A stretch of 64,000 nucleotides of DNA from Negaprion brevirostris (lineage: Eukaryota), in contig JARDVH010000042.1 in the NCBI GenBank assembly GCA_030324005.1, positions 83,003,332-83,067,331 of the forward strand, read 5' to 3'. A model generated the notes under the pieces. It did not search any database and was not told the DNA's origin. It was given only the letters and a program-made list of their open reading frames with translations. Made by a program: the position numbers and the translations under genes. Shown in pieces: positions 490-50,872 of the stretch; the stretch's first letter is position 1; every line of letters starts with the position of its first letter.

Positions 490-900
490 CTACTCCAATC
501 GGCCATCGGGCTATAGCGACAGATCCAGATTTAACCTGTAATGAGTTAATAGGGTAATTTGATTCGGGGGGGCACTCCCGTTATTTCGGATTACAGGGGG
601 AATGTGCTTATAAAAACAAGTCGCTGCGGTGACTTGTTACACGTTTTCTTCCGTTTTAGTATTTTTAGGTTACCGGATAACAGGATTATTACTACTACTA
701 CTGGCGTTTTTTGCTTTAACGAGCAAAATGATTCCTTTTCGCGTAGCCTTGCTGCTACAGTTAGTAGTATGTTTAAATCCGAACAGATTCACGTATGGTG
801 AGTAGCGATTGTTTCCCGGCTGTGGAATTTAATCTTTGGAAATAGTGGGCGTAATTTATAAGCGTCATGTTATGTTCCGAAACACTGAGTTGAAAAGGCG
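490..900 (+). promoter_or_regulatory. CpG-retaining promoter/exon 1 region
   Basis: Many CG dinucleotides (ggccatcggg, tcgctgcggt, ttcgcgtagc, ccgaac) around the ATG, against near-total CpG loss in the introns. Confidence 0.6.
728..797 (+). CDS. VLDLR: Exon 1: signal peptide [23 protein letters not shown]
   Basis: aaaATG, hydrophobic core, donor G|gtgagt phase 1. Confidence 0.8.
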
Positions 901-3900
901 CTATCTATAAAGATTGATTACTTTTCCTTCATTAAAACTATTGCAAGTACTGAAGCATCTCTTGCTGCTCATATCAATAAGAATCCCTACCTCCTAAAAG
1001 ATTTGTAACTTAATAGCCCATCCACACCACAAAACGAGGGGTGGCTCTTCAGTTAATACTAATCCTTGTTTAGGATATGCTACTTTCAGTTCATCCTCAC
1101 CATTTATCCAGCCAAAAGCTAGTGGTAACCAACACTTATTACAGCTGAGTTATTTTTATCTTTTAGATCAGATTGTTTAACCGATTTTTCACTTTTTTTG
1201 TTTATAGTTATCAGTAAATTACACGTGTGGGTTTCTGAAATGGGGATGGCCTGAGCATTTTCATAGTGGTATAGGATTTTAATTGTAAATTTAAATGTAA
1301 TATTTACCAGGCTGGAGTAATAGTAAGTATCCATTCATAACTTCATTAGGAGTAATGCTTAATGGTCTGAGATTATGTAGCCCAAGAATGAAATGGTACT
1401 GGCCATCTGTTGATTAATACTGAACTGTAAAGTTACAGAAACAATAGGGAACAAGGCTGGAATTGGTCTTCTTTCTGAAAGAGAGCAACCTTTGGCTTGG
1501 TGATGCTTATGAGGCAAAATTGGGGACTCCTGTTCCCTTCCAATGAAAAGACAATCTCGGTTGGTACCACAAGTGCCACTAATGTGTGATCCTGATTCCC
1601 ATTGTGCTAGTCAACACTCACCTCTTGAACAAACATCACTTTAAGCAGGCTGTGATCATTATCCTAATACTGTGAGACTTTGCTCTGTACAAATTGGAAG
1701 CTGCATTTTCTATAATATAGTGGCTGTTATATTGTGCATAAAATGCATTGGAATTATCTTTTGTTTGAAAAGACACTAATTGCAATTTTGGGCCATGTTA
1801 TGGATTACTCATTTCTGGCCTAATGGGTATCTATTTCCTACCTTGGGAATAGTTCCAAACCAACTAGTAAAGTTTAAATTTATTGCCAATCCAGTAGATT
1901 GTTTTGTCCTGTATGTTGGTGAGCTTGTGGAGCTTTGTGATATAAGCACTTTGGATTACTCATGCAAGACTATCCATGCTCATTGGGTAGTATTTATATG
2001 GCTGCTCCATCTATTTATGGTATTCTGGGTATTTACCAATTGTAACTTTTTAAAGTCAAGGAGAGGTGGTTATATGATCATTGCCTAGCACTTCATGCCA
2101 TGATCAGCCCAAACCAAGATGTTGTCCAGATCTTGCTGCATGCCAATATAGACTTCTTCAGTGTCTGAAGAATGCCAAATGGAACAGCTCTTGGGTAACT
2201 GTCAGTGAACATCTCTCATCAGAGGGAAGATTGCTGAAATTGGTTGGGCTGAGGATATTCAATATTACCTTTTTTAGCAGCATTGTCATGATGGCTGACC
2301 TCCAATAACCATGCTATCTTCCAGCCCTGATCTCCATAACTTCCAGTATTTTCACCTGAGGCTCAGTCAGTCGCCTCCTACATTCAATTCCTGTGAAATT
2401 ATCTTTTATATGGAGTTAACAAATGTAAATTTTCATTCACCACAATGAAAAAGATATCTGATTTTGTTCCTGACTTTTTTGCTTTATAGTTCATCCTTTT
2501 TCTTTTGAAGGCTCAAAAGCTCCCTGTGATGCATCGTGGTTTCAGTGCCAAAATGGACGCTGTATCCCACAACTGTGGAGATGTGACGGGGATGATGACT
2601 GCACTGATGGAAGTGATGAAGATAACTGTGGTAAGTAGCTGGCTTGTGTGCTGGATAGCACTTTGGATCAGCATACCTTGAGGCCTGTGCAGGTAAGAGA
2701 AGAGGGCCAACTGCCCAATAAAATTTGGGCACTGGTGCTCCACCTCAGCACTGTAGGGCTTTTGCAGCCTTGCTCAATCTGAGAAAATGTGTTTTAATAT
2801 TTATGACCATCTCATCACATCTCTGTAATTATTAGCAGACCTGGGTGAGATCCATATTAGTTTTCTACTTACCTGCAGAAATGTAATACCTGTCTAAAAA
2901 TGGGACATTAGTTTATTCCTGACCAGTTTACATGTGTGCTGCAGACCAATCATGCCACATGTGTATTTTCTATTCTATCTGGAATAGAAGATAGAGGTAT
3001 CACAAGTAGTGTACCATTTTAATACCAGCAGCCCATGGTGCTAACTAATCCATATGTGATGGGCAGTCTGACATTTGTATGTAATGCAATGTAGGTAAAT
3101 TCTTGCATAAAAATTCATCTGACATTGTTTGCCAAGTTACCACTGATCAGTTACTATCAGGCTCTGCAGAAATCTGATTATAAATCATACAATCCAGGAA
3201 GAGGTCTCTTGGAGCTCTTGTAATCATTCAAGCAATACAAGATCAGCATTCACTGCCCACTTCCCCCAGTTGCTCTTGCAAAGGTGGTGGCAAGCTGTTG
3301 ATACAGTTTGTGGTGTATGTACACCCACTGCTGTTTAGGTGGGGAGGGATTTTGACCAGGACAAGTCATATGGGGAAGATTTTAAGTTTCCTGTGGAAAA
3401 GGATCAATTAGTGGCCTTTGATAAGAAAAAATATGCTCTCAAATGAGTAGTTGAGACCTAGATGTGGTTATTATTTGAGGGGTATTAGGCTTGTAATATC
3501 AACTGCAGTGGATGCACCTGAGCAAGAAGTCACAGACGTGGCCAAGTCTCAACCCTGAGTGCAGGAGTTGCACAAGAGGACTGGAGAATTGCAAATGATG
3601 TGCCTGGATTCAAAATGGCAAGGATGGATCATAACTACAGATGAGTCAATTTAAATGTATACTATGGAGAGCCATATATATTAAAATTGTTTAACTTACT
3701 CATGAGTTGAGGGCAGTGAAGTTGTATAAAGGCAAAGTTGTTAGGGTGCCAGTGTCAACATCCAAGCCCATGAATAAAAACAGACAGAAGCTAGATGGTA
3801 TTGCATGGTGGTTTTTTCAGACTGGTATTGGATACATAATGGGACTTCCCTTGATGTTACTGGATCACAACTTGTCCTAACCTAGACTTGTTTGCAAGCA

Positions 3901-6900
3901 GAACCTGGAGTACACTGATAAGCTGACAGAATGGATGAAATAATTCAAGACCTAGAAATTACAGCCCAGATCAACCTTTCTTCAGCTCTGCTCCCTGACT
4001 CCGATAGCTGCTCTGGCAATCTTCAGCCGGAGATACTGAGGTGTTCTTGTAGACCCCAGAACCTTCTCTAATTCTCTAGGGCTTTGTCAAACAAAAGCCT
4101 CAAATTCCCCAACCTTCCTGTCCACCACTTTGCAGGGAAATGGAAAAATCCCTCTGGTATAAAGGCAAGGGGCAATATAGAGGCAGAGGTTTACAGCATG
4201 GAAACAGGCCCTTCAGATCAACTGATCCATGCTGGCTTTTTAACTCCTTAAGCTAGTCCCAATTGCCTATAATCCCTCTACTCATCTTAACAATGTAACT
4301 GTCTAAATGCTTTAAAAGACAATTGTACCTACCTCTAGAAGCTTGTTCCAGATATTTTCTACCCTCTGGAAAAAGTTGCAGCTCTGAACCCTTTTGTATC
4401 TCTCCTCTCTCCTTAAACCTATGCCCTCCAGTTTTTAGACTCCCCTACCTTTGGGGAAAAAGTCTTGACTATCTAGCTGATCTATGTCCCTCATTATTTT
4501 AGCACTCTCTATAAAATCACCCCTTGGCCTTCTACACTTGAGTCCCAGTCTATCCAGCCTCTCCTTGTAACTCAAACCATGTCCTGGTAGCATCCTAGTA
4601 AACCTTTTCTACACTTTATAGAAAGGATATTAAACTAGAATATGACCAGAATTGGAATACTGTATGTGAGTGTGGCCTTAATGTCTTGTACAACTTCAAG
4701 ACGTCCCAACTTCTGTAGTCAATGTTCTGACCAACAAAACCAAGCATGCCAAATGCTGCCTTCAACTGTCCACCCATGACTCCACTTTCAAGGAGCTATG
4801 AACATGTACCCCTAGATCTCTGTTCTGTATCTCTCCCCAGTGCCTGACCATTAACTGAATCCTGCCCTGGTTCAATCTACCAAAATGCATCATCCTGCAT
4901 TTTTCTAAATTGAACTCCTGCCATTTGTCAGCCCACTGGCCCAATTGATCAAGATCCCATTGTCATCGGCAAACTTGCATGCCTCCTATATTCTCATCTA
5001 ATCACTAATCCCTGAGGCACATGGCTATTCGTCTACAAGTGTAGACACAATGGACTTTAATCTACTTAAGGTGAGGGATGCATTGAGAAGCTACATATGC
5101 TAGTCTTTAACTGAAGCATCTAAATGTGCAAAAGTAAGATTATGGTAGACTTTAATGTAAATCTTCAGTATCCAAGAGTCAGGAGGATGTGCAGATACTG
5201 GTGCAGGATGACTTGTGGGTAATTGGACTTTATTGGAGAAGCTGGTGGTCTTGAAGAGATTTGATACAAGATTCTAGACAGATAGGGAGAAACTGTTTCT
5301 GATAACATGGTCAAAAACCAGGGGCATTGACTTTAAGGTGAAAAGAACATGAGGAAAACTTTCAGTGGATGGTTAGGATCACTGCCTGAGTCTAGTTTGA
5401 TTTTTGGCTTTCTCAGATTGGAATATAATCAGATTTGCAGGGCTACAGAAGGGTAGGACTATTTGATCTTGCAAATAACTGCACAGATACAAATGGCTGA
5501 ACTATTGATACTGGAGATGAATACCTTCAGTCTATTGATGAAATTAAGAAAATGACTATTCTGAAACCTTGGCATAATGAAACTGGTCAATACAAATTTT
5601 GAACTGTGGTGATGTACTATCATATTATGTATACTTTATGAACAACATCAGTCAATAACTATATACCCTCCATGGGAATAACTTGGTATTTGTAGTAATG
5701 CTTCAAGTAGTAGACCAGAAACATGTATAATATCTCTCTTTCAAGGTAAAATCACCTGTGGAACTTCAGACTTTGTATGCCACAGTGGACATTGTGTGCC
5801 AAGTAAGTGGCAGTGTGATGGCACATCTGACTGTGAGGATGGATCAGATGAAAGTCCAGATATATGTCGTAAGTATTAGGAAGGAGTGAAAATTTTGATC
5901 CTGTATTTCCCTTGATCATTCTGTCCCTTTGCATTTTCTAATTTCTTCCTTGTCCATAACATAGGGCAACTGCATGTATTTTTGACTCTTTGTCTCCATT
6001 TGCTTGTATTTCATATTTTAGTTTTAAATATCATGTGCAGCAATAGGTTTTGTTCTGAGTGAGCTAATGACCAAATGCATCAAATTTTGGATGCTTATAC
6101 TATTTTAAACCATTTAGTGCTACCATTACAATGGCATTTTTACATAAAATTGAGGCTGTACTAGGTGACTTTAGTCTACTTGACAATTTAAGTTGTGCTG
6201 GAATCCATGTTCACAAACACTTAAAGCTCACCAGGAAGGAGGATGATGTGTGCAAACTTTCTCTAAACTCTAATGTCTCTTACAGATACAAGAATGTGTC
6301 ACTTAAATGAAATAAGCTGTGGTCCTGGGACTCTTCAGTGTATTCCTGCTTCCTGGAAATGTGATGGAGGAAAGGACTGTGACAATGGTAGTGATGAAGA
6401 GAACTGTGGTAGGTTAATGCCAGATTTAGCTGAGTGGATTCTAAATGTCCAAAGACTAGATTCTAGTTGGAGGAACAAAGGCCTGAACTATACAATGTGA
6501 ATTACTGCAATTTTAAACTTGTACTCCACTTTTTGAGTTTAAAGAACACTTTGGATCTAGCACTAAATATTTTCACAACACTAACTTTGATTTGCTAACA
6601 GCTGAACTTTTATGAATANNNNNNNNNNAAGCAAATGATATCAAGGCTTGCAGGATTCCCACAGGTTTAAGTGTTCAAGTGTTTTTATTTCTGCTAGTGC
6701 CATTATCACTCGTCACCAGACTCATGTCCACAATCCTATCTAGATTTTCCTTCCTGGGGTGTGGGCATTACTGACAAGGGCAGAATTTATTGCCCATTCC
6801 CTTGAATTAAGGGCTTTTGCCAGGCCATTTGTGAGCAGTTGCCTGGAGTCAAATGTAAGTCAACAAGTTAATGATGGCCTATTTCTTTAAAGAATATTAA

Positions 6901-9900
6901 TGAACCAGAAATAAAAATGTTGGATAAACTCAGCAGGTCACAGCATCTGTGGAGGGAAACAATTGACGTTTTTAGATTTGAATTTTGATCCAATACATTA
7001 AATAATCCTCAAACGTTCCTGAAACAGAAGGAGCACTTGGATCCTAGGGTGGGATTTTACAGCCTTGCTCATCCTGAGACTTAATCTTGCCTGAGGTCAA
7101 CAGACCTTCCCATACTTCACCCCTCACCAGCTCCAATTCCTGTGGCAGGTGGGCGACTCCAGCCATGATAACTTTCTCCTAACAGATATTACAAGATCTG
7201 CTGTTTTTACTTGATTTCCAGCAGTTGCAGTATTTTGCATGAACCAGAATGCATTATGAAAAATGATTAAATGGTCCCTGTTACTGAGACTAGCTTTACC
7301 TTGCAAGTGTGTTAACAATTCAAATTTCACCAGCTGTCATAGTGAAATTTGAACTTGTGTGCATTGGCAGGGTGCCTTGATTAATCTAGCAGCAATACCA
7401 CTCAGCCACTAAATGTTACCTCAATTGAAAACTGATAACTTGCTTTATGCAGTGTTCATATAGTTTTACTTTGGACTCTAATCTGGTCAAGCCAGCACTT
7501 ATTGCAATTCACCTTTTTTTGACTGGACTGACATGTCAACTCATCTCAATGTGGTGGAGGTATGCATATTTTGAAGGAAAATCATGGGTTGGCCTCCAGT
7601 AATTTGGCTCCAATTCTGGCTTTGGGTGACTTGAGTTCACATTATCCATATTTGTGGGCTTCTGCCAAGTACTTTAGTCTTGTCCCACTGTCCAGAGATG
7701 TGCAGTTAGATGGATTGGCCATGCTGAATTACCTCAATGTCCTACAATGTGTAGGCAGTGACAAAAACTACTGTCCTAGAGCCATCTTCCTAGACGGTTA
7801 TAAATCCTGGCTAGCATTGCTGCCCCTCCAGCCTCAGGTGACTGGAGTTTGCACATTCTCCCCCATGTCTGTGTGGGTTTACTCCAGGTGCTCAGGTTTC
7901 CTCCCACAGTCCAAAGATGTGTGGGCTAGGTGGATTGGCCATGCTAAATTGACTCTTGCATCAGGGGATTAGCACAAATGGGGTTTAGGTGGGATTGTGG
8001 TTGGTGCAGACTAGATGGGCCAAATGACCTCTTGCACTCCGGATTCTATTCTGGAAAACAACTGATTTTTGGAATGGTAACAAAAAAAATTAAGATCATC
8101 AGATTCCACTGGCACAATTAGCAACAGGATTGTGCTTCCATACAGCTGCTCTGCATGTTCCTGTCATCCCCACCTGAGCCACATCAGTAACCTGTGATGG
8201 GGTCATGATCTGAAAGTTTCAACTCTGTTGCATTGCTGTAATTTTTGATACAATTTGGCACAACCAAAAACTTGCCCTCTTAAGGGACAAAGTGCNNNNN
8301 NNNNNNNNNNNNNNNNNNNNNNNNNNNNNNNNNNNNNNNNNNNNNNNNNNNNNNNNNNNNNNNNNNNNNNNNNNNNNNNNNNNNNNNNNNNNNNNTCTTA
8401 AGGGACAAAGTGCTGGAAGCTAAATATTGCCAAGTCATGTCTTTTGCATTAATTACCAGTTGAAGGTTCCTATTTGCAGTCCTTGCATAGAGATTCTTAA
8501 AATTAAGTTGATTTCATTTGGTAAGGATTTTTTCTTAACTTGTATTCAATATAATTTACTAAAAGCATTCTAATTTCAGTAACAATGGATTTGCCTCATG
8601 GCAATACTCTTGGGCATATTAAAGCAAAAAATTTAATCTAATCTAAGTTGCCATGAACCAGAATATGCAAATTTTAATCAATTCCCACTAGAGGGGTCAC
8701 TTTGATGATTTTTGTTTAAATGACTCCAAAGCATAACTTGCTCCACTATGAATAACTTCTATACTTAATACAATTCCAGGTATTCCCTTGTTTAATTGCA
8801 TTATACCAATAGTGTTTTTGATTATTCATGGATTGGATTGAAGTAATTGGAAGGTGATGCAAGTGTTTTTAAACATGGAGGGGGAAGAGGGTAGTGCAGC
8901 AATTATCCCAGCCCTCTAGCACTGATCCCATTCCCCAGCACCAGTATTGTCCAGCAGCATGTGACTGCTAGCCACTAATGAACAGGCAGCTGACCTGGTG
9001 GAGGGCCCAGGGGGAGGGCATCCAGAAGGCTGCATGTGCTGATCTATGGCAATTGGCTTGTCAGCACTATGCTGCCATCTTCTTGTGGGAATATGCCCCA
9101 CCCTGGATTTTTCAGTGAATCCTGCTAGGGCACTCTGGCAGTGTCAGATTATCCTAGAAATCATGCATTTTTGAGGGGGGAAAAAAGCAGGGTTTACTCC
9201 TACTTTTCTCCAAACTGGAGACTTTTTGGAGAATTCCAGCCATGGTTTCTGATAGTGGACAGCTATGACCTCTAATTCTTGACACTTGGTTCACTGAGCA
9301 GTAAAAAACTTCTACACACAGTGCTCCCACCAATCTATTGGCATACACCACCATACAGGTAGATACATATTGAGCAACCCTCACTACTTGGTTTCTGCAT
9401 TAGTTCTAATCAATAATTCCATTTGTTCTAAAATTGGCATCTTTTCTTTCAGGCACTTTTGTTTGCAATATACTTGAGTTTACTTGCTCCAATGGCAGAT
9501 GTATTACTAAAACATTTATCTGCAATGGTGAAGATGACTGTGGTGATGGAAGTGATGAAAAAGGTTGTGCTCCATCTATTTGTCACTTGCATGAGTTTCA
9601 ATGCAATAGTTCTGAATGTATCCCCTTGAATTGGGTGTGTGACAACAATACTGATTGCGTTGACCAATCTGATGAAGCTCCAGAACATTGTGGACATGCT
9701 CTCCCTCCTGTGACCTGCTCTCCTAGTGAATTCCTATGTAATTCTGGTGAATGCATCAATCAACACTGGTACTGTGATGGAGATGATGATTGCAAAGATG
9801 GAAGTGATGAAATTAATTGCCGTAAGTCTTTATTTGGCTACTGAACTAAATCTCAAACTTGCAAAGTGGAAAACTTCCTAGTTGAGGTGTACAAATTGCT

Positions 9901-33900: not shown

Positions 33901-36900
33901 GTAACTACTTAGTGTTGGGGCCAGTCTTTTTGAGGATGTGGTTTCTTGATGCTCCTACAATTTTTGGCCATGTTTGAGATTTATCCTTCTCTTTAGACCA
34001 TCTTCTTGAACTTGGATACTATTTAGCTGTGTTGAATGATTTAACTTTTCCTAGAATGTGATAGAATCACAAAACTAGACAATAGAGGCCATTTAGCCCT
34101 TGTGCAAACAAAATAGCTATTAGGCCAAATATCAGGATTTGATTTGGGGTTTTTTTCTAATGCATGCATTAAAGTAAAAGGCTTTTTGCAAAGGGTCTTT
34201 CTACCAACTGCTTTCACAGCATGACCCTCCCATTTATAAATGGAAGATCCCAGAAAAGATGAACCATTTTCCACATTGTGGGAGCCACTTTCTCCTTGAA
34301 GGCAAACTGAGACCAGAGAACTGTCAGCCAATTGACAAGAGTCCATGACCTCAAACTCCAGACTATGGTTTAGTGGAAAACCAGATTTCCCAGTGTTTTT
34401 GTTTTAGATACTTACTTCCAAGTCCTGAGGCTTGCCATTGACTGCCCCCCACCCCCCCCCCCTTGCAGTATTCAGTCCAGTTTCCTAGTCAGTAGGAATT
34501 CTGCAGTGAACAATTTTCCACCTGACTGCTAAACCACCAGCTACAAAGAAGCCTTGAGGCTTCAGTTTGACTTTTGCTATTCCTGATGCATGCCAATGTC
34601 AGCAGCCTCCCAAAGTAAAAATTGGAGGGCAGACAGAATCCAAAAAATCTAGAAGCAACAACTTGTCCAAATTCAGTAGCAGAACTTTGCAGGCATTGAT
34701 CAAACTTGGCAGTCACCCATGTACCCATCAGAACCCTACTGAAGGCACCAAATGGTAAATGAAAATTCCAAAAAAATTTGGTTTTAGCTAATATTCTTAT
34801 GCCCTCTTTCCTGAAGAGCTGTGCTTCTGAACTGTCAAACTTCTCCAAGGTCTGATATCTGAAAGTCCACTTTCTCGGAGTGAATGTTGCATGAACACTC
34901 CTTTCTTTTTGCAGTATTAGACCTGCACTTGGAAATAGCTGTGCCCCTTTCTCAATCTGCTCCAATACGTATAATTTTAGACAAAGGTGAAATCATGTAA
35001 AGGAGTACAATTCTGTTTCAGATAAAATTACCTGTCTCATCCATGAGATCAGTTGTGGCCCTGGATCCCTTCAATGTATCCCTGCTGCTTGGCAGTGTGA
35101 TGGAGAAAAGGACTGTAATAATGGTGGTGATGAGATTAATTGTGGTAAGTTGAAGCACAAGCTTTTCTCTGCCTTTTTTGTGGGTGGGTTCAAATAGAAG
35201 TGTAACTAAATCTATTGACTTGGTTTGTTTTGTAGTTGTGTGAACTCTTGTATCTGCACTGTAGTGCAGACCAATAGTCCACAATTGTAGCACACAGCCT
35301 AGGTACTTTGCTCAATGGCCATTGCTATCAGGTTTTTCCTAAGCTTGTACTAGATTAACTTAAAGCAGCAGTTTGAAATATTTTAAAATGCTGGTCATTT
35401 GAAGCAAACCCATACAAGATATTTAGGCTTTGCCTAATTTAAAGCAATCTAATTGCAGCCACTTTGTTCCCACATGCCTTCTACTCATGTGCTTGAGGAA
35501 GGTACTCAACATACAACTTAAAATGTCACCCTCCATTTAGACATGTTCTAGATGCAAACTGCCAAACTTTTCCTTCCTGGAGGGGAAGTGGGGCTGTGTA
35601 TTTCAGAATACTGAGGAAATCTCTTTCTAAGACCAGTAGTCCTCCTTTTGACTACAGTACTGTGCATTTAACAATAGGGTTTTATAGTCTTGAAGTTAGA
35701 CATTTTAGTGCTACCCCCAACCCCAATAGTGGGTTTCATTATGAAGTTAAGTTTGCAATACTGCCATTGAATTTGTCTTTTAGAACTTGCATCTCGTCAC
35801 TAGTCAAGCAGAACATTCTAAAACCAAGTCAGTAAATGTTGTTAAAGCTTTAATTTACCTAATCTGAATTACCTTATCTGCAGCTGAGTGGACCACTCTG
35901 AAATTGATATTCTCATTTTTTTTTCAGGTGAAATAACCTGTAGCCCTGTTGAGTTTGCTTGCTCCAGTGGTAGATGCATTTCCAGGGCCTTTGTCTGCAA
36001 TGGTGAGGAGGATTGCAGTGATGGAAGTGATGAGAAAAGTTGTGCTTCAGTTACATGTGGCACTCATGAGTTTCAGTGCAATAGCTTGGAGTGCATATCT
36101 TTAAATTGGGTATGTGATAACAGTGTGGATTGTGCTGATGGATCTGACGAGACACTAGAACATTGTGGCCATACAATACCCCCTCCTGTGGCCTGCTCTC
36201 CTGCAGAGTTCCTATGTGATTCGGGTGAATGTATCCATCGTCGCTGGCGTTGTGATGGCGATACTGACTGCAAAGATGGAAGTGATGAGGCTAACTGTCG
36301 TAAGTAGATTACTTGTGCTACTTTGACTACATGCTGCAGTATTTAATTTGTCAGATCCAAGTGTGCAATTCAAAGCTGTACAAATTGCTAGACTCTAGTC
36401 TGTCTTTAATCTCTATTCTTTAGTTGGTTCCCCTCAACCAGCACCTTACTTTCAAGGATTGTTTGGTTGTATTTGAGCAGAGATGGCAAGGGTTGCATAT
36501 GGTGGCTTGAATGAGTAATTTTTAAGTGCCGTTGCAGATACTTATGAACATGGAGCACTTGTGATTATTAAGTGTACCTTAAATGCAGAATTGCATTGCT
36601 CATGTAAACACAAGTCAACATGACCTAGGTTTGTTAAGTGCTCTAGGATGCAATCAGACATCAACACTCAGTTTTATGATCATATCTAAAACCATTGCTC
36701 TGGAATTGCAGTTCAGCATTTGAATCTGGCACAAGTCTCCAGTGTAATCCCTGCAAACAAAACATAATTTTCCTCTGGGAGGCAAAATATCTTCCAGCAA
36801 CTTTTGAATTGTACCTGGAGCACAAGCATGCATTTATGGAGAAATATTCTGATTCTTGCAGTACCCTGTTAGCTAGTCTACCAAACTTTATTCTAATCCA

Positions 36901-39900
36901 TGTGAACTATCCTGGTCCTGAGCACTAACTTTGTACAACCTATCACTTGTACTGAATACACTTTAAAAATCATCTGTCTCCTAATCTCAAAGATGGTTTT
37001 AGATCTGTGAACATGTCCATGCCAACTGACATTTTACTCCATTCCATTTGGCTGAAGTTTTGATCTGTATCTTTTTTCAGCTCCTTTAACATGTAGACCT
37101 GGTGACTTCATATGTGGTGATGGCAGTTGCATACCTGGAAATAAAAAATGCAATCAATTTAGGGACTGTGATGATGGTAGTGATGAAGTGAACTGCAAGG
37201 AAAGTAAGTAAATTTAATTATTGCTCTGATTAAAGATCAGTATTATAAAGCTCCTGCTCTTACTCTATGCTATAGTTTCAGAGTGCGCTGGACCTACTGA
37301 CTTCAAATGTCAAAGTGGGGAATGCATAAATATCACCCAAGTGTGTGACCACAAGCAGGACTGCAAGGACTGGAGTGATGAACTTAATGGGTGTAGTAAG
37401 TAAACAGCATCACTTATTGCTCTACCAGTTCAAAATTAATTTATCCATTTTTGGGGGTGCTGTCTAAGAACACTCTACACTTTGTGTAATTGACAGCAAA
37501 TGTTAAGCTTTGTAGGAAGTGAGACAAATTTGAACTGCTAATGCAACTTTTAATTGCAGCATGAATTAAAGTATGTCCATTCCTGCTGAGATTATGGAAA
37601 CATTTTATATAAATGTAAAGATTTGATCCCACAAATTGTTCTGGACTCTTGGTGGTTCAAAATAAAAACCCAAACTTAGTAATGTGACTTGCTCAGCAAT
37701 CCACAATTTGATCCGCAAGGATTTTCCAGTAAATGGTACTATTGCGCAGTGATTTACTTGAATTCATTTCATTTCTTCAGACCAAAATGAGTGTTTGAAG
37801 AAGAATGGAGGTTGCTCTCACTTCTGCCACGACCTTGTCATTGGTTATGAATGTGAATGCCCTGCTGGTTTTGAATTGATTGATCACAAAAATTGTAAAG
37901 GTAAGTGAATGAATGTTGACTGACCCTTTCACCAAATAAAATTGTTTTGTTTTTACTTTAAGTTTTTTTTTGTTTTGTCTTCTCAGACATAAATGAGTGC
38001 CACAATCCTGGATCCTGCAGTCAAATTTGTATAAATATCGAAGGCAGCTACAATTGTGAATGTCATGCAGGTTATCTTGTGGATCCAACTAGTGGTGCTT
38101 GCAAGGCAGTAGGTAAGTGTGAAGCTGTTTGCTGCCTGATTTGATTACGCTTCTTCCTCCCCCCAATTTGTCTGGGATTCAAACGACTTTTAGAAGTGTC
38201 CCTTTGGGTCTTGCTTATTTACTACCTATCCAAATAAGCATCAAATGGAGTGATTTGGGACTTAAGAGGGTTCCCTTGTTGACAACTACATACCAGATGA
38301 GATCAATTATTTGACACTTAGCTGAACTTGTTAAACTATCATGACTTTATGCAGACAGTAGCACTGCTACCTCAGTGCCAGGGACCCAGTGCCATTCTAT
38401 CATTGGGTTGGGTAGAATGTGCAAACACCACACAAAGATGGTGTGGGTAGATGGATTGGCCATGGTGAATGTGATGTTACAGGGATGGGGCCTGGGTAAG
38501 ATGCTGAGTTGGTGCAGACGTGATGGATCACCTTGCACTAAGAATTCTGATGTAAAATGTATAATCTTGCTTCCTTAGCAATCTAATTTCACTGGCTCTT
38601 TTTAAATCTCTGAACTTGCTCTTTAGGAAAAGAACCATATCTGATTTTCACAAATCGCCATGACATTAGGAAACTAGGACTACGTCACCAAGAATATACA
38701 CAAGTAGCAACACAATTAAGAAAAGTTGTAGCACTGGATGCTGACATTGCAGAACAGAGAATCTTTTGGGTTGACTTGGGGCAGCGAGCAATTTTCAGGT
38801 AATATACACTTCATAATACTGGTACTAAACTTCAGTTAACACATGAATTGTACAGTCCCTTGAGCCTTGCATACTCTATTTCAAATAGACCTGAAGTTTG
38901 TTTTTTAACCACCTTGGTACTCTCTCTTTTTCAGTATGCTTATGAATAAAAGTGGGAAGGCTGGTATTTCCCAAATCATTGCTGATCTACAAATGCCTAT
39001 GGGGATTGCAGTTGATTGGATCTCCAAGCACATCTACTGGACTGACAGTGGGACCAAAACTATATCTGTGGCTACATTTGATGGAAGCAAAAAGAAGATC
39101 CTCTTTGATTCTGACCTGAGGGAGCCAGCATCTGTAGCAGTTGATCCACTTTCTGGGTACTATACATTGTATGACTAAAGGCTATCTGAAAATATCAGGC
39201 TGTTTCAAACAAATTTTAAATGTTATCTTTCTGGTATTGGACTAGTTCTTGGTACAGTATTGCAGCTCAAGCCATTTTGAATTCTATAGTCAGTCCATCC
39301 TTTTGATTTTGAAAGTCAAATTGCCATTCAGTGATTGTATTCTAGGGGTTGAGGCAAAAAGCCATGTGCAGGGTGATGGGAGAAGTGGTAGTGGTTGCAG
39401 AGGGAGTGGTCTTTTGAACACTGCAAGCTAAGCACATGGTTTGGGGAGGTGGTGGGGTGGAGAGTTGCTGGATTTGGTCAAATTTTGAGCAAATATTTGA
39501 AGTTAGCATACACAAGATCATTTTGGAGATTTGTAGGTACTATAGTACTGCTGTTTTAATAACATCTAAAACAAAAAAATGCAACTTGTACTACAGTGCT
39601 ATTTTATGCATTAAATTTGCATTACAATTAAGCCAAAGGATATTTGCATTCAAATTTTTAGTTTTTGCAAGTAAAACTTTAAAATGTTTGCTACTTGGAC
39701 AGAACATCTGCTTATTTTGTGATCTGTTTGTTTTGAAGGTATATTTACTGGTCAGACTGGGGTTCCCCAGCAAAGATTGAAAAAGCAGGCATGAATGGTG
39801 TGAACCGCCAGCTCCTGGTTACTACCAAAATTCAATGGCCAAATGGCATTGCACTTGGTAAGTAAGGCTTTTTTAGTTGTAGACTTCCTAATTTTTAGAC

Positions 39901-42900
39901 TTTCATAATAATAATAATACTTCAAACTTCTTCAGATCTTGTGAAGAGCCGTCTCTATTGGGTTGATGCAAAGTTTCATGTGTTATCAAGTGTGGATCTA
40001 AATGGTCAGAATAGAAGAACAGTATTACAGTCCCAGGAATTCCTCTCTCATCCCAGTGCAGTTGCTTTATTTGAGGTAATACAATCTTTTTTATTTGGGA
40101 CCTGACTGCCTTGTTATAATCCTAGAGTGGAACTCCAGTTTTAATCATTCTTAGCTGTGGATGAACAAATGTTTCATGTAAACCAATAGGCAAAATGTGG
40201 TCAATGACAGATTCCCTCATTTTATACAAATTTCTCTTCAAATCTCAGATGTTTGTCATCTGAGTTAGCTGGTCTTATTGACACCCTTGATTTTCACATT
40301 CCAAGAGGTTTTAGAAACCTTTCCCAAGCAACACTCCTCTCTTCACCCAAGGAAGCATTGTCAGGATTTCAATCTGTCTCCCTTTTTTTATGCCTTGGAT
40401 TTCTACGTGAAGTCTCTGGTACTCAGCTATGCCAACAAACTGCTCCACAGGCTGTATTAAGATGTCAACTGTCAATGTTCTCATTGCGTTCTCTCTCTCT
40501 TTTTCCNNNNNNNNNNNNNNNNNNNNNNNNNNNNNNNNNNNNNNNNNNNNNNNNNNNNNNNNNNNNNNNNNNNNNNNNNNNNNNNNNNNNNNNNNNNNNN
40601 NNNNNNCCCACCAACCAAGCTGGCTTTAAATCTAGTTGCTGCAACTGCCTCCAAATACTTTCTTTTAAATTCTCTTGAGCAGGACCTCCAACTTGTTTGT
40701 CATACCTTTTTTGTCTCCTGAGACTTTTCTCCAACTCTTTCTGCATCTTTTTTCAAAGTATCCTCCATGAAGGTCTCTTTTTAAAAAAAAAAACTTTGGT
40801 CCCTGTGCAAAGCTGACTATTTGGGGTTCTCAAGTTGTTTACTTTAAATTTATTACCATACCAGGACCTGAACTAACCTGTTAACCTCCAAATACAACAC
40901 TACTTTGAGAAGGATGGTCATACTTTTCTAGTACAAGTTGTGCACCATTTTGCTTGTGCAATTTAAAAATTCTAATGCAGACAAGGAAGTTGAATATGCT
41001 GAAATGGAAAAGCAAATAGAATTCCTGATTTCACTTTGGCCAAGGCAAAGTGGAAATTTCAGATCTAGCCCTGGTATTGAACATTTTCTTGTTTTTGCAA
41101 ACTGGATTTAAACAGTGAAAGGAGTTTCATGCAATCTAATTGCTTTGATACTGCATGGCCATAAACAGGGTTTAAGTTTAATGAACATGATCAAAAATTT
41201 AGTATGATATCCTCCCTAAATTTCCAGGACCATGCATTCTGGGTTGATGTGGCAAGCCAAACAGTTTATGGAGCCAATAAGTACAGCGGTGGTGATGTGA
41301 AAGTTTTGGCTTTAAACATTGAAGCTCAAGATATCATTGTTTATCATGAACTAGTGCAGGCACCTGGTAAGTATGCTACAGGACTCACTGCTTCACACTT
41401 CCTACATTTCTGCTATGGGCCTTTTTTCCTGAGACTAGATTCCACAGTATGAACTTTAAAAATGTGTATTTCATAATGTGGGCTGTCTGAGTTGCTAGCT
41501 GCGTTCTGTATGCAGGGATGTTTTGGGGTGAAATTGGACTGGAATCGGATCTTATCAATTGAACATCCATATTTAGTGGAGAGCACAGTCCATAACTAAT
41601 TATACATAACTGAGAAATGATAAACTTTGAGTCTTCCAGCATGATACTGTCTACTCACATTAATGTATGAGTAAATATGCACAATACACTTGGTTAAAAC
41701 CAGCGTGCTCAGATTTCAGCAACTACCTGGAAATATACAAACCTTAATGTGATTTTTTTTAATTCCCAGGGAAAAACTGGTGTGGCCATGTAGCTTGTGA
41801 ATACATGTGTCTTCCTGCTCCTCAAATCAACAGTCACTCAGCAAAATATACTTGTGTGTGTCCAGCTGGAATGGAGTTGAGCAATGATGAACAGCAATGT
41901 TACTCAGGTATGTGTATGTTTTTGTCTTGGGAGCTGTTTCCAGTATTTTAGCTTGACCTTTTTAGACATTTAGATCTATGACTTGGTTCCCCTGAATTGG
42001 ATTTGAGTGCTACTGAAGAGTCTTACTCCTAGGCAAGTATTTGTACTACAATTTTCCAGAAGTGCTAAGTCTGCTATGCTGGGAACTATTCAAATTGCTA
42101 ACTTCAGATGGTTCTGCTTGTAGCTTTCCTGAAAAGGTGGAAACAAACCATTTCAGCGTAACACCTTTTTAATGTACAGTTTGATACCACCCCTGCCAGT
42201 TCCTCCTGACTCCACAGGACCCTCCCTTGAACCAATCTAGACTGCTGCTCTAAACATGGCTCAATTTTTCAAGTGAAAAGTGTGGGTATCTAGAAGATTT
42301 CAGGTTTGCTTTAGAGCTCCCATTTATGTATGTAGTTGGTCCACTGTACAAAAAGCCCAAATCAAATGCAGTTGACACTAGGGCTTGAAGCAAAATGTCT
42401 TGCCCAACTAGTAACTTATTGCCATTTTAAGTTTGGTTTGGAACTGATCATAGTATCATTGGATATAGATTGGTTATCTATATACAAACGTGTATTTATT
42501 GCACCTTGAGCAGGATGCAGCCAACTAATTTACTAAAGACTTGATTTTTGAAACAACCAGCTTTAGTTGAATCAAACATGGTTTTTATTGTACTACCCAA
42601 ACTTTTAAACCATTTCAATTGACTTGTGTTGGGCAACAATTAAAGTAACCATTTTCCACAGCACATGTAAACTGATCAAGTACATAAGTTTCTGCATTCT
42701 GATCCTTTTACAGTGAATGTACAGCCTTCAAACATGTCTACAGTACCTTCAAGTGTTGCCCCAGGAGTTTCCTTCCGGTTACTTACTGTATTTCCAACCA
42801 GCTTGGCTACTTCCAAAGGTAATAGAATTAACAAGCAGCACAACCTTTTAACATGCATCTTAAACTTCTAAGCTAGTTTGATACATCTTGGCCTGTATCC

Positions 42901-43600
42901 CAGAGGGTTTGGATGGAAATTGGGACTTGGAGTTCCAGAATGACCTGGCTATACCAAATTAAAACAAGTTTGAAGTAACCTAGTTCAGACAAAACACTTG
43001 TGTTCTTTCAATCACAGCAAACTAAGACCAATTGCTGTTTGATTCTGGATAGACTTGAACCACTTAACCCAAGATCTAGTTTCTTGCTCTAACATTTGGT
43101 TCCATTCCAAGCAATGATTTTAGAACTTGTGGTACAGATTTCCCATGTTCAGTTGGGTTCCTTAAGTGTTTTTCAAAAATTGTTTTGAACTATTTGATTT
43201 TTGAGCTCAAGTGAAAATATCTTCCTACCCAGGTGTAAATGCAAGTTTTACTTCTGAAAGCAAGTCAAAAAAAGGATCTACGGTCATTTGGGTCATCTTT
43301 GTTGTTGGTAAGAACACTTTTTTGTCCTCCTGTCCATTTCACCCTAAACTTTTATTTGGTATAGGGTAATTGTGGTTAAGTATCAGGCTACAAAATTTGA
43401 TTTGTCTGATTTTTTTCTTACCAAAAATTTGACATACCCCTTGGATTGCCTAATATTATTCTTCAATTTCAGCACTCCTGATAATTGCTGGTTTCAGTGG
43501 CTACTTCATTTGGCAATCCTGGCAGAAGAAGAGGGTGCAGTACACTAGTTTTGAGAATCCAGTCTTTAGCAAAAATGTTCTGTCTGAACCATCAAAATAA
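728..43600 (+). CDS. VLDLR: VLDLR-derived giant LDL-receptor-family gene (paralog) with three tandem ectodomain modules; 43 coding exons, about 2165 aa
   Basis: Exons assembled by hand from GT/GC-AG sites with consistent phases. Summed CDS is 6498 nt and no internal stops were seen. Peptides follow VLDLR order and wording ([45 protein letters not shown]). The symbol marks family origin; this is probably a paralog rather than the canonical ortholog. Confidence 0.9.
2511..2630 (+). CDS. VLDLR: Exon 2: module 1 LDLa-1
   Basis: [35 protein letters not shown]; aag|..|gtaagt. Confidence 0.92.
4185..5010 (-). mobile_element. CR1/HER1-like LINE 3' fragment
   Basis: [30 protein letters not shown]; typical 3' tail. 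Confidence 0.8.
5746..5868 (+). CDS. VLDLR: Exon 3: module 1 LDLa-2
   Basis: [37 protein letters not shown]. Confidence 0.92.
6286..6408 (+). CDS. VLDLR: Exon 4: module 1 LDLa-3
   Basis: [37 protein letters not shown]. Confidence 0.92.
7812..8052 (+). repeat. HE1/V-SINE
   Basis: GGAGTTTGCACATTCTCCCCATGTCTGTGTGGGTTT...TCCCACAGTCCAAAGATGTG; partial copy at 7681-7742. Confidence 0.85.
9453..9821 (+). CDS. VLDLR: Exon 5: module 1 LDLa-4/5/6
   Basis: Three LDLa repeats in one exon, as in VLDLR exon 5. Confidence 0.93.
10523..10645 (+). CDS. VLDLR: Exon 6: module 1 LDLa-7
   Basis: [16 protein letters not shown]...STDETNC. Confidence 0.9.
10724..10837 (+). CDS. VLDLR: Exon 7: module 1 LDLa-8
   Basis: [15 protein letters not shown]...DRSDEPFKC. 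Confidence 0.9.
11902..12021 (+). CDS. VLDLR: Exon 8: module 1 EGF-A
   Basis: [17 protein letters not shown]...[13 protein letters not shown]. Confidence 0.92.
12090..12215 (+). CDS. VLDLR: Exon 9: module 1 EGF-B
   Basis: [26 protein letters not shown]. Confidence 0.92.
12522..12693 (+). CDS. VLDLR: Exon 10: module 1 YWTD propeller part 1
   Basis: [15 protein letters not shown]...IFWAD. Confidence 0.92.
13142..13363 (+). CDS. VLDLR: Exon 11: module 1 propeller part 2
   Basis: [15 protein letters not shown]...DPLSG. Confidence 0.9.
13818..13936 (+). CDS. VLDLR: Exon 12: module 1 propeller part 3
   Basis: [20 protein letters not shown]...IQWPNGITL. Confidence 0.92.
14019..14158 (+). CDS. 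VLDLR: Exon 13: module 1 propeller part 4
   Basis: LYWVDSKLH...[12 protein letters not shown]. Confidence 0.92.
16326..16467 (+). CDS. VLDLR: Exon 14: module 1 propeller part 5
   Basis: [21 protein letters not shown]. Confidence 0.92.
17052..17189 (+). CDS. VLDLR: Exon 15: module 1 EGF-C
   Basis: GKNWC...[10 protein letters not shown]...KYTCVCP. Confidence 0.88.
17362..17484 (+). CDS. VLDLR: Exon 16: module 2 first LDLa (LDLa-3 type)
   Basis: [37 protein letters not shown]. Confidence 0.9.
18022..18396 (+). CDS. VLDLR: Exon 17: module 2 LDLa-4/5/6
   Basis: Three-repeat exon. Confidence 0.93.
18592..18714 (+). CDS. VLDLR: Exon 18: module 2 LDLa-7
   Basis: [16 protein letters not shown]...ESDEVNCKN. 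Confidence 0.9.
19240..19725 (+). mobile_element. Decayed CR1-like LINE 3' region
   Basis: Remnants of the KWQ-FN and LYKTLV-PHLEY coding pattern. Confidence 0.6.
20080..20199 (+). CDS. VLDLR: Exon 19: module 2 LDLa-8
   Basis: [21 protein letters not shown]; alternative acceptor giving start 20086. Confidence 0.88.
20445..20469. repeat. (TG)n microsatellite
   Basis: Direct reading. Confidence 0.9.
21300..23830 (-). mobile_element. Long decayed CR1-like LINE
   Basis: Plus strand gaactttgtcaaagaccttgctgaagtccatgtagac is antisense of the RT motif VYMDFSK-FDKV; CR1-like tail near 21300. Confidence 0.75.
26198..26317 (+). CDS. VLDLR: Exon 20: module 2 EGF-A
   Basis: [23 protein letters not shown]. 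Confidence 0.92.
26401..26526 (+). CDS. VLDLR: Exon 21: module 2 EGF-B (GC donor)
   Basis: [15 protein letters not shown]; donor AG|gcaagt. Confidence 0.88.
26870..27070 (-). repeat. Decayed HE1/V-SINE
   Basis: Antisense head (gtgaggcagcagtgct), V-domain remnants and tail. Confidence 0.65.
27520..28135 (+). mobile_element. CR1/L2-like LINE 3' end
   Basis: RT C-terminal remnants ([15 protein letters not shown]) and tail aataaatgctggccagccagtgatgcccatatccca. Confidence 0.65.
28488..28659 (+). CDS. VLDLR: Exon 22: module 2 propeller part 1
   Basis: [19 protein letters not shown]. Confidence 0.92.
29452..29676 (+). CDS. VLDLR: Exon 23: module 2 propeller part 2
   Basis: [15 protein letters not shown]. 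Confidence 0.9.
30068..30186 (+). CDS. VLDLR: Exon 24: module 2 propeller part 3
   Basis: [15 protein letters not shown]. Confidence 0.92.
30267..30406 (+). CDS. VLDLR: Exon 25: module 2 propeller part 4 (GC donor)
   Basis: [11 protein letters not shown]...ITIFE; donor AG|gcaagt. Confidence 0.88.
31265..31406 (+). CDS. VLDLR: Exon 26: module 2 propeller part 5
   Basis: DHVFWSD...NKFTG. Confidence 0.92.
33043..33192 (+). CDS. VLDLR: Exon 27: module 2 EGF-C
   Basis: GKNWC...[10 protein letters not shown]...KYTCVCPSG; donor G|gtgagt. Confidence 0.9.
33512..33631 (+). CDS. VLDLR: Exon 28: module 3 first LDLa (LDLa-2 type)
   Basis: [22 protein letters not shown]...GSDESTEVC. Confidence 0.92.
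35022..35144 (+). CDS. VLDLR: Exon 29: module 3 LDLa-3
   Basis: [28 protein letters not shown]. Confidence 0.92.
35928..36299 (+). CDS. VLDLR: Exon 30: module 3 LDLa-4/5/6
   Basis: Three-repeat exon. Confidence 0.93.
37081..37203 (+). CDS. VLDLR: Exon 31: module 3 LDLa-7
   Basis: [14 protein letters not shown]...GSDEVNC. Confidence 0.9.
37276..37395 (+). CDS. VLDLR: Exon 32: module 3 LDLa-8
   Basis: [14 protein letters not shown]...DWSDE; alternative acceptor giving start 37282. Confidence 0.88.
37781..37900 (+). CDS. VLDLR: Exon 33: module 3 EGF-A
   Basis: [23 protein letters not shown]. Confidence 0.92.
37987..38112 (+). CDS. VLDLR: Exon 34: module 3 EGF-B
   Basis: [26 protein letters not shown]. 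Confidence 0.92.
38350..38550 (+). repeat. Decayed HE1-like SINE
   Basis: tagcactgctacctcagtgccagggaccc head; ggattggccatg. Confidence 0.6.
38627..38798 (+). CDS. VLDLR: Exon 35: module 3 propeller part 1
   Basis: [19 protein letters not shown]. Confidence 0.92.
38935..39156 (+). CDS. VLDLR: Exon 36: module 3 propeller part 2
   Basis: [15 protein letters not shown]...[14 protein letters not shown]. Confidence 0.9.
39739..39857 (+). CDS. VLDLR: Exon 37: module 3 propeller part 3
   Basis: [20 protein letters not shown]. Confidence 0.92.
39936..40075 (+). CDS. VLDLR: Exon 38: module 3 propeller part 4
   Basis: [11 protein letters not shown]...FLSHP. Confidence 0.92.
41228..41366 (+). CDS. 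VLDLR: Exon 39: module 3 propeller part 5
   Basis: DHAFWVD...[12 protein letters not shown]. Confidence 0.92.
41770..41907 (+). CDS. VLDLR: Exon 40: module 3 EGF-C
   Basis: GKNWC...[23 protein letters not shown]. Confidence 0.92.
42714..42818 (+). CDS. VLDLR: Exon 41: Ser/Thr/Pro-rich O-linked sugar domain
   Basis: [35 protein letters not shown]; phase 1-1; good acceptor. Confidence 0.7.
43233..43307 (+). CDS. VLDLR: Exon 42: stalk and start of TM
   Basis: [25 protein letters not shown], resembling the VLDLR juxtamembrane exon. Confidence 0.82.
43473..43600 (+). CDS. VLDLR: Exon 43: rest of TM and cytoplasmic tail
   Basis: [42 protein letters not shown]. Confidence 0.88.
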
Positions 43601-45510: not shown

Positions 45511-45585
45511 ATAGTAGGTAGGGACAGTGGGAATCTCATTCATCCATTCATGTGCATCACTAATTAGATGACAAGGCATTTGGCA
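45511..45585 (-). pseudogene. 28S rRNA fragment immediately downstream of the R2 target site
   Basis: Minus strand reads TGCCAAATGCCTTGTCATCTAATTAGTGATGCACATGAATGGATGAATGAGATTCCCACTGTCCCTACCTACTAT, the conserved 28S sequence with CpG decay. Confidence 0.93.
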
Positions 45586-46038
45586 TTTTAATACAGAGTG
45601 CCTTATTTGAGTCTTTACGTCACTCATCGACGGTTTGGACTACCTCTAGCGGAATCCCAGTCAGGGCTCCCTGATCTTAATTGAGGAACATGAGCTGTTG
45701 TCTATGCTAGAGATTGTATTTCTAGCTATCTATGGACATCCCCAATCTTAGGGGTCTACTGATGAGCCAGTTTGTCAGTACCAAGTGTGCAGGAAACCTT
45801 ATGGCGAGAGTGAAAATTTAGAGTTTTAATTAGCCAAATTGAGCAAGGTCCAATTACAGGATAACTTATTAATGCCAATCAGCCTGACGAGCACGTTTTT
45901 GGGATGTGGGAGGAAACCGGAGTGCCTGGGGAAAACCCACACAAACACGGAGAATGTGCAAACTCCCACAGACATTGCTGTCCAGCATACAGTGCTAACC
46001 ACTGAGCTGACATGTTGCCCATTGACCAGTCCAGAATT
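45586..46038 (-). mobile_element. Older R2 3'UTR copy (runs into gap)
   Basis: Colinear with 46194-46663, more CpG-decayed, ends TAAAA directly at the 28S junction. Confidence 0.85.
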
Positions 46039-46138
46039 NNNNNNNNNNNNNNNNNNNNNNNNNNNNNNNNNNNNNNNNNNNNNNNNNNNNNNNNNNNNNN
46101 NNNNNNNNNNNNNNNNNNNNNNNNNNNNNNNNNNNNNN

Positions 46139-46188: not shown

Positions 46189-46480
46189 TTCTATTTTAAT
46201 ACACTCAATGAGTGCCTTGTTCAAGTCTTTACGTCGCTCGCCGACGGTTTTGACTATCTCTAGCGGAACCACAGTTAAGGGTCCACTGATCTTGATTGAG
46301 GAACGTGAGCTGTTGTCTAAGCTAGAGATGGTATAACTAGTTATCTAGGGTTATCCCAGATCTAATAGGGGCCTACTGATGAGCCAGGTTGTCAGTACCG
46401 AGTGCACAAGAACCCTCATGATGACGAGGGTGGAAATTTAGAGGGTTACGTTTATGCTGAACTAAGGGGAATCCAATTAC

Positions 46481-46645
46481 AGGACAATTTATTGTTGCCA
46501 ATCAGCCTAACAAGCACGTTTTTGGGATGTGGGAGGAAACCGGAGTGCCCGGGGAAAACCCATGCAAACACGGGGAGAATGTGCAAACTCCCACAGACAT
46601 TGCTGCCCAGCGTACAGTGCTAACCACTGAGCTGACGTGTTGCCC
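46481..46645 (-). repeat. V-SINE/HE1-like core embedded in the R2 3'UTR
   Basis: Minus strand: GGGCAACACGTCAGCTCAGTGGTTAGCACTG...GGAGTTTGCACATTCTCCCCGTG...CTCCGGTTTCCTCCCACATCCCAAAAACGTGC; also at 45858-46020. Confidence 0.85.
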
Positions 46646-46944
46646 ATTGACCAGTCCAGAATTATCATCTACTAACGGCCATGACGCACTGGGCGCCTCT
46701 CGAATCAACACCCAAGAACCAACCAAGTACGACCTGCCGAGTGCACACCCCTTGTCGGTCAACAAGGTGGACTGTAGCACCTGTAGATGGCATTAGGTGT
46801 CATCAATGAAATACAAATAGACAATACACAGACAGTACAAACACTGAATCAGAGTCCACCATATAAGTTCATACGGCCTCCGTGCGGGCTATAAGGTCAG
46901 TGGTCTGACAAGTGGCCAGCTTGTCCAGTGGTCTCGGTCGCCTC

Positions 46945-50376: not shown

Positions 50377-50872
50377 TTATTATTGTCTCAATGAAGGTAC
50401 CATCATCCTGGGCACCTCCCATTGCTTTTGGTATTGGTGATGTTAGCCATAGATCCCACTCCCTCCATGAGGGTTTGATAGGCTTTGTTATAGAAGGTAC
50501 AAGTAGTTGTTACTACCGCCTCGGCTGGATGGGCAGTCCAAGCCGGCTCTTCTACAACAGCCATTTAGTCTGCACGTACTGGGACGACAGGTTCCTCTGG
50601 CCTGGGACCCGAGTCCGTCGCCCAATAGGGCACTGCTGGTATGTTTTGTCTCAAGACCATCTCTTCCGTCTGGGTCGAGTCTGATCTTGTTACTAACTCC
50701 CTAGAGTTGTTGTGTAACCTAGCATTTTTAACTTTTCACAGAGCGGTTACGGACTCGTCTGCGGGGTTCTTGTTGTTTATCCAGTTCGCAACCCATCCGG
50801 CCACATGCCTTCCAGACAACACACTTTTTTTGGCTGATCTAGCCAGATCACAACCGCACGTAGTTTTTCAGT

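What the first reader, a model, noticed from the sequence alone, without database searches (positions are those of the whole stretch)
728..43600. A triple-ectodomain VLDLR: a megalin/LRP1-style giant receptor rebuilt by intragenic triplication
Seen: one signal-peptide exon and one TM/tail bracket three full LDLa-EGF-EGF-YWTD-EGF modules (21 LDLa, 9 EGF, 3 propellers). Each module repeats the VLDLR exon sizes (120/126/172/222-225/119/140/139-142), and all 43 exons are open and phase-compatible. No signal, TM or stop exon fits in the 172-nt and 319-nt junction introns. Established: canonical VLDLR, the vertebrate vitellogenin receptor, has one module; multi-cluster ectodomains occur in LRP1, LRP2 and insect vitellogenin receptors. 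Inference: an independent lineage-specific route to a multivalent endocytic receptor, plausibly for yolk or lipoprotein uptake. I recall extra chondrichthyan VLDLR paralogs being reported (VLDLRc2/c3), so the gene may be one of them; novelty needs checking.
Basis: partly seen in the sequence, partly recalled or inferred. Interest (0 to 1): 0.9.

Follow-up and report, generated by a model that had tools for sequence, protein, structure and literature searches.

The report
Shark three-module yolk receptor VLDLRc2
This is an intact shark copy of VLDLRc2, an already published cartilaginous-fish gene in which the outer part of the VLDL receptor is repeated three times on one membrane anchor, likely used by growing eggs to take up yolk protein.

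Summary
The 43 exons (728-43600, +) splice into one open frame: signal peptide, three VLDLR ectodomain modules (8+6+7 = 21 LDLa, 9 EGF, 3 propellers), one TM and a short tail. Two acceptors move 6 nt upstream, giving 2165 aa. The protein is 84.9% identical and collinear with catshark VLDLRc2. Each module is sister to the same-position catshark c2 module (100/97 or better) inside the VLDLR clade. The gene sits between a five-module c3 and a one-module c1. Ohishi et al. 2023 (PMC10015161) described this architecture, the tandem cluster, ovary-only expression in catshark and the multivalent vitellogenin idea. The scan found the same gene before on other DNA (e1-8609270). Added here: a spliced contig from a relative skips exactly the 319-nt junction intron; modules 2 and 3 lack LA1-2 and LA1; and c2/c3 tails are short and read FENPxF, not FDNPVY. 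Junction 1 was not tested by RNA. Vitellogenin binding is inferred, not shown.

The parts
728..797 (+). Exon 1, signal peptide (predicted)
   Evidence: ATG at 728, hydrophobic N-terminus; aligns with the catshark c2 N-terminus
2511..10837 (+). Module 1 LDLa cluster, LA1-LA8 (exons 2-7)
11902..17189 (+). Module 1 EGF-A, EGF-B, YWTD propeller, EGF-C (exons 8-15)
   Evidence: module sister to catshark c2 module 1
17190..17361 (+). Junction intron 1, 172 nt, weak donor CAG|GTACAC; splicing inferred, not seen in RNA
   Evidence: ortholog records continuous here
17362..20199 (+). Module 2 LDLa cluster, LA3-LA8 (exons 16-19; exon 19 from 20080)
26198..33192 (+). Module 2 EGF-A, EGF-B, propeller, EGF-C (exons 20-27); two GC donors
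   Evidence: spliced contigs of run X1 join exons 25-26 and 26-27
33193..33511 (+). Junction intron 2, 319 nt
   Evidence: one X1 contig skips exactly 319 nt with 53 and 114 nt on the two sides; a DNA contig of another organism (X3) spans 32387-36930
33512..37395 (+). Module 3 LDLa cluster, LA2-LA8 (exons 28-32; exon 32 from 37276)
37781..41907 (+). Module 3 EGF-A, EGF-B, propeller, EGF-C (exons 33-40)
   Evidence: X1 contigs join exons 35-36 and 38-39
42714..43307 (+). Ser/Thr-rich stalk (47 aa, 34% S+T) and first half of the TM (exons 41-42)
43473..43600 (+). Exon 43: end of TM, tail of about 29 aa with FENPVF, stop
   Evidence: FENPxF in c2/c3 orthologs

Best explanation
The gene is the shark ortholog of VLDLRc2, one membrane protein carrying three VLDLR-type ectodomains, and it likely works as an oocyte endocytic receptor for vitellogenin and other yolk lipoproteins. 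Shown: gene structure, orthology, position between c3 and c1, splicing across junction 2 in a relative. Inferred: acidic Ca-bound LDLa repeats capture basic ligand at up to three clusters; the FENPVF tail drives clathrin uptake; each propeller can fold back on its LDLa cluster at low pH to release cargo. Origin (inferred): after a tandem copy split from c1, its ectodomain exons, bounded by phase-1 introns, were duplicated several times in quick succession, before chimaeras and sharks diverged; this gave c2 (3 units) and c3 (5 units).
For: 84.9% identity over 2161 paired columns to BDQ29912.1 'VLDLR c2', 90.6% to a Mustelus model. Each module groups with its same-position ortholog at 100/97 or better; all 34 c2+c3 module rows form one 100/100 clade sister to c1, inside a 100/100 VLDLR clade that excludes LRP8, LDLR-like, LRP1 and LRP2 rows. 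Own genome: 5 + 3 + 1 first-propeller exons in a row on contig C42, same strand, then a KCNV-type channel ORF. X1 contig skips 319 nt at junction 2. Ovary-only expression of c2/c3 in catshark (PMC10015161 section 10). FDNPVF keeps an internalisation index of 0.95 (PMC2133019 Table I passage). The positions matching LDLR K560/H562/H586 are K/H/H in all three propellers (role from PMC5452030 passages). The LA pattern 1-8/3-8/2-8 is the same in the elephant shark record.
Against: No binding or uptake assay exists in what I read; the paper leaves it to future work. The first three LDLa repeats are reported essential for vitellogenin binding (Li 2003 as cited in PMC11772764), and only module 1 has all three, so three equal sites are doubtful. 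Junction 1 has the second-weakest donor score of 42, was not tested by RNA, and the Mustelus model has about 11 extra residues there. The junction-2 evidence is one contig at depth 4.5 from a related organism, in a run whose RNA status is a guess; the tool placed the cut 5 nt off the GT..AG ends. Two database models (Cetorhinus, Rhinoraja) stop at junction 2, two newer catshark models split the gene inside module 2, and the Narcine model lacks an LA exon at both junctions. Elephant shark modules do not pair with same-position shark modules in the tree.
Confidence: 0.8

Rival explanations
1. Same gene, different cargo: c2 takes up VLDL-type lipoproteins, vitamin or metal carriers or other maternal proteins in oocytes or follicle cells, while c1 stays the main vitellogenin receptor.
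For: Modules 2 and 3 lack LA1-2 and LA1, part of the reported vitellogenin site. c1 is also expressed in ovary. No binding data.
Against: Module 1 keeps LA1-LA3 with Trp at the cage position. Ovary-only expression fits yolk uptake. VLDLR is the vitellogenin receptor in oviparous vertebrates (PMC10015161 introduction passage).
Confidence: 0.14
2. The locus mainly makes shorter products: a secreted one- or two-module ectodomain by read-through into a junction intron, with the full three-module receptor a minor form.
For: Read-through stops after 2 codons in intron 27 and after about 37 in intron 15. Weak donor at junction 1. Two database models end at junction 2.
Against: No canonical poly(A) signal in either intron. 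The only contig seen at junction 2 is spliced, and intron depth there is about 0. 12 of 12 full-length ortholog records compared run through both junctions, though they were picked as full-length and most are predictions.
Confidence: 0.05
3. Three separate VLDLR genes or an assembly artefact.
For: The assembly has N gaps in 9 of the 42 introns.
Against: Neither junction intron has a gap, signal exon, TM or tail. Modules are 66-67% identical. A DNA contig of another organism spans junction 2. The same architecture occurs in 10 species.
Confidence: 0.01

Closest known systems
Chondrichthyan VLDLRc2 (Ohishi et al. 2023, PMC10015161; catshark BDQ29912.1 / Scyto0010396)
   Same: Three ectodomain units, 8+6+7 LDLa, 2165 aa, 84.9% identity, collinear at both junctions, FENPVF tail, between c3 and c1
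   Different: Only species-level divergence; the last 10 or so tail residues differ
Chondrichthyan VLDLRc3
   Same: Modules from the same clade; short FENPxF tail; adjacent upstream gene
   Different: Five units, first unit starts at LA3; modules 63-69% identical to the window's
Canonical VLDLR / LR8 (c1 in sharks)
   Same: Exon layout, LA1-8 order, propeller, stalk, TM; 68-70% module identity
   Different: One module; tail about 54 aa with FDNPVY; broad expression
LRP1 / LRP2 (megalin) and arthropod vitellogenin receptors
   Same: Several LDLa clusters and propellers on one anchor
   Different: Best segments only 33-39% identical and outside the VLDLR clade; the design is convergent

Membership tests
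VLDLRc2 | Three repeats of the VLDLR extracellular domain | tested here: met
   definition in PMC10015161 section 8
VLDLRc2 | Groups with catshark c2 in phylogeny | tested here: met
   3 of 3 modules sister to the same-position catshark c2 module, 99/95 to 100/100
VLDLRc2 | Tandem cluster with c1 and c3 | tested here: met
   c3 (5 units) ends about 25 kb upstream, c1 starts about 91 kb downstream, same strand
VLDLRc2 | One transcript across module junctions | tested here: inconclusive
VLDLRc2 | Ovary-restricted expression | not testable with these tools
   No tissue-labelled RNA run served; published for catshark only
VLDLR (LR8) lineage | Inside the VLDLR clade, apart from LRP8 and LDLR | tested here: met
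   100/100 clade of 23 rows; LRP8 and LDLR-like labels
Canonical VLDLR (c1) | Single ectodomain and FDNPVY tail | tested here: not met
   Three modules, FENPVF; the true c1 lies downstream
LRP1/LRP2 | Orthology and about 31-35 LDLa repeats | tested here: not met
   21 LDLa; 33-39% identity; outside the clade. RefSeq names such as 'LRP1-like' for c2 orthologs are automatic labels
Vertebrate vitellogenin receptor (function) | Binds and internalises vitellogenin | not testable with these tools
   No assay; left to future work in PMC10015161

The most novel reading that the evidence does not exclude
c2 and c3 descend from one VLDLR copy that specialised for bulk uptake: it cut its tail to about half and fixed a non-phosphorylatable FENPxF signal, which would keep clathrin uptake but change adaptor or signalling use. 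It then burst into eight modules whose LDLa clusters are deliberately unequal (LA1-8, LA3-8, LA2-8, the same in shark and chimaera), so that only the outermost module is a full vitellogenin site and the inner ones bind other vitellogenin types or cargo. This would be a divided-labour yolk receptor, converging on megalin and on the non-tyrosine signal of Drosophila Yolkless. These details are not in the passages I searched of the 2023 paper.
Probability: 0.3. Interest if true: 0.5.

Novelty: already known. Interest (0 to 1): 0.17.

Why it matters
The architecture is striking but published, so this window mainly adds one more intact ortholog and a checked exon model. It is useful in three small ways. 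It gives spliced evidence across a module junction that the paper's two listed c2 primer pairs do not span. It shows that c2 orthologs are mislabelled LRP1-, LRP2- or LRP4-like or split in databases. It points to two testable details: unequal LDLa clusters and the shared short FENPxF tail. If c2 proves to be a multivalent vitellogenin receptor, it would help explain how sharks build very large yolky eggs and could serve as an ovarian maturity marker.

Tried and rejected
Order of module duplication: unresolved. Three trees give a polytomy or shifting weak pairs (c2M3+c3M5 at 84 and 91/72, but c3M2+c3M5 at 96/95). AU tests reject neither a c2-only clade (p = 0.133) nor a c3-only clade (p = 0.056) (29 rows, quick search, no mixture model). 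No claim is made on whether c2 triplicated independently. RNA search: no RNA holder on record was listed; X1 was treated as RNA only because its contigs skip introns. dN/dS per module was not run because no ortholog coding DNA was in hand. No structure or complex prediction was run. A furin-type RX[KR]R site was looked for and not found. In the c3 and c1 models, exons hidden by N gaps were left out (c3 module 1 EGF-B and LA4 start, module 2 last propeller exon, probably module 3 LA2; c1 first propeller exon partial), and these rows were used only in the tree. No LRP13 sequence was identified among the hits, so it is not in any tree. Place look-up of earlier notes gave nothing.

Full report
Observation. 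A six-frame motif scan found LDLa, EGF and YWTD motifs only on the + strand, between 2.5 and 40 kb. From the sequence I built a 43-exon model from ATG 728 to the stop at 43600. All 42 acceptors are AG, donors are 40 GT and 2 GC, phases match, and there is no internal stop. Two LA8 acceptors are better placed 6 nt upstream (20080, 37276): this closes two 2-residue gaps against the catshark protein, and a spliced contig uses 37276. The corrected protein is 2165 aa. It has 21 LDLa repeats with six cysteines each; by best score against six canonical VLDLRs they are LA1-8, LA3-8 and LA2-8. Modules are 66-67% identical in protein and 72-73% in DNA, which rules out a haplotype or assembly duplicate.

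One gene or three. The junction introns (172 and 319 nt) have no N, are closed in all three frames and have no canonical poly(A) signal. Three public runs hold part of the stretch, none on record as RNA. Run X1, from a related organism, has contigs that skip introns: exons 25-26, 35-36 and 38-39, and 29-30, 30-31 and 31-32, with loose ends matching exons 26, 28 and 33. One of the 6 contigs laid skips exactly 319 nt between exons 27 and 28, with 53 and 114 nt on the two sides; the tool put the cut 5 nt left of the GT..AG ends. This is single-contig evidence at depth 4.5. A DNA contig from a third organism spans 32387-36930 unbroken. Its donor is the second weakest of 42 by a matrix built from this locus, and the Mustelus model carries about 11 extra residues there. 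All 12 full-length ortholog records compared (10 species) cross both junctions; the Narcine model lacks an LA exon at each. Most of these are gene predictions, and four other records are partial or split.

Identity. A paper search for VLDLRc2/c3 gave one paper, PMC10015161. I read its outline and abstract, sections 8, 9, 10, 13 and 24, term-search passages, and part 2 of 9 plus search hits of its supplement; figures were not visible. It states that VLDLRc2 and c3 contain three and five repeats of the c1 extracellular domain, arose by tandem duplication, are expressed only in ovary in the cloudy catshark, and may bind several vitellogenins at once. The window protein is 84.9% identical over 2161 paired columns to P0124 = BDQ29912.1 'very low density lipoprotein receptor c2', whose cluster includes scyTo_0010396, the paper's c2. 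Other c2 records range from 64% (elephant shark) to 90.6% (Mustelus asterias). Of the paper's two c2 primer pairs, the first maps inside module 1 (10816 and 13155) and the forward primer of the second matches exon 39 of module 3 by eye. Neither spans a module junction, so adds a small independent check.

Neighbourhood. A search of the own genome with the first propeller exon gave 16 matches; the top 9 lie in a row on contig C42: five upstream, three in the window, one downstream. Exon mapping over 354 kb shows a five-module gene with its own signal exon and FENPVF tail, then this gene, then a one-module gene with FDNPVY, then a 449-aa ORF with BTB and ion-transport domains, KCNV-like (the KCNV2 name and its human linkage to VLDLR are recalled). 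The order c3-c2-c1 agrees with the consecutive whale shark ids in the paper's Table S4.

Phylogeny. In trees of the LA3-to-EGF-C core, each window module is sister to the same-position catshark c2 module, and shark and ray orthologs group by position at 100 (70 rows; 42 rows). All c2 and c3 modules, including the elephant shark's, form one 100/100 clade sister to c1. With outgroups (45 rows) this clade lies within VLDLR, apart from LRP8, LDLR-like, invertebrate lipoprotein receptors and LRP1/LRP2; that tree warned of long branches among the outgroups only. The neighbouring c3 modules are sister to Mustelus, so the source is likely a carcharhiniform shark. Branching among the eight module types is a polytomy and AU tests settle nothing. 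Elephant shark modules do not pair by position, yet its c2 has the same LA1-8/3-8/2-8 pattern, which favours a three-module gene before the chimaera-shark split; homogenisation or a separate expansion in chimaeras is not excluded.

Mechanism. Shown: anatomy, orthology, synteny. Inferred from family knowledge: the LDLa clusters bind basic ligands, and all three propellers keep K, H and H at the positions that map without gaps to LDLR 560, 562 and 586, the residues tied to acid-driven release (PMC5452030 passages). The tail is about 29 residues against 54 in c1. Among the 23 proteins, all 13 c2/c3-type sequences with a tail read FENPxF, all 4 c1 read FDNPVY, 4 models lack a tail and 2 are non-fish. 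In the LDL receptor, FDNPVF keeps an internalisation index of 0.95 against 0.20 for Ser or Ala (PMC2133019, Table I passage), so uptake should work. ARH-type adaptors act in Xenopus yolk storage, and Drosophila Yolkless uses a non-tyrosine FxNPxA signal (PMC3338440 passages). Against a simple three-site model: the first three LDLa repeats are reported essential for vitellogenin binding (Li et al. 2003, seen only as cited in PMC11772764), and only module 1 has all three. Modules join at phase-1 introns after EGF-C, so exon-block duplication needs no frame repair.

Novelty. Already known. Further searches found no later functional study in the held library; a 2025 preprint only cites the cluster (one passage). 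Subscription journals are not covered. 'NPxY' and 'cytoplasmic' do not occur in the paper's main text, so the tail change and the unequal clusters may be unreported there, but its Fig. 4A and seven supplement parts were not seen and could show the repeat counts. After forming this reading I found that the scan had reached the same conclusion on other DNA (e1-8609270); that is not independent support.

Verdict. Observation confirmed, interpretation supported, novelty none at the level of the gene. Identity as VLDLRc2 about 0.98; role as an oocyte yolk-uptake receptor about 0.8. Interest 0.17.

Noticed in passing
window 46700-51150, minus strand: R2-like non-LTR retroelement: zinc fingers plus reverse transcriptase (48328-50376, Pfam RVT_1 E 2e-35) continuing in frame to 47182 after one stop codon, next to 28S rRNA fragments at 50993-51151 (Rfam). 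A second 28S-like stretch near 45520-45590 was seen by eye from recall and not picked up by Rfam. Looks like a displaced rDNA fragment carrying its insert.
   Followed up: partly
window about 45600-46040 and 46190-46660: Two similar copies of a stretch of about 450 nt on either side of an N gap, just before the retroelement (by eye).
   Followed up: no
G000:C42:82898122-82979130 (L005-L013): Five-module VLDLRc3 with its own signal exon and short FENPVF tail; a few exons fall in N gaps.
   Followed up: yes
G000:C42:83137728-83152800 and 83166038-83167384 (L023-L026): Canonical VLDLRc1, then a KCNV-type potassium channel ORF.
   Followed up: partly
P0121, P0451 (skate records): Skate c3 models have 3 (Amblyraja XP_032874679.1, modules 3-5) and 4 (Leucoraja, modules 2-5) units and no clear signal peptide; either truncated models or a lower unit number in skates.
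   Followed up: partly
P0236 (firefly Lamprigera record, 2311 aa): Insect lipophorin-receptor-like model with three LDLa clusters, 40% identical over 95% of catshark c2; groups with invertebrate receptors. Convergent triple form or fused tandem gene model.
   Followed up: no
window 26526 and 30406; also several c3 exons: GC-AG introns; EGF-A/EGF-B donors are GC in several c3 modules too.
   Followed up: no
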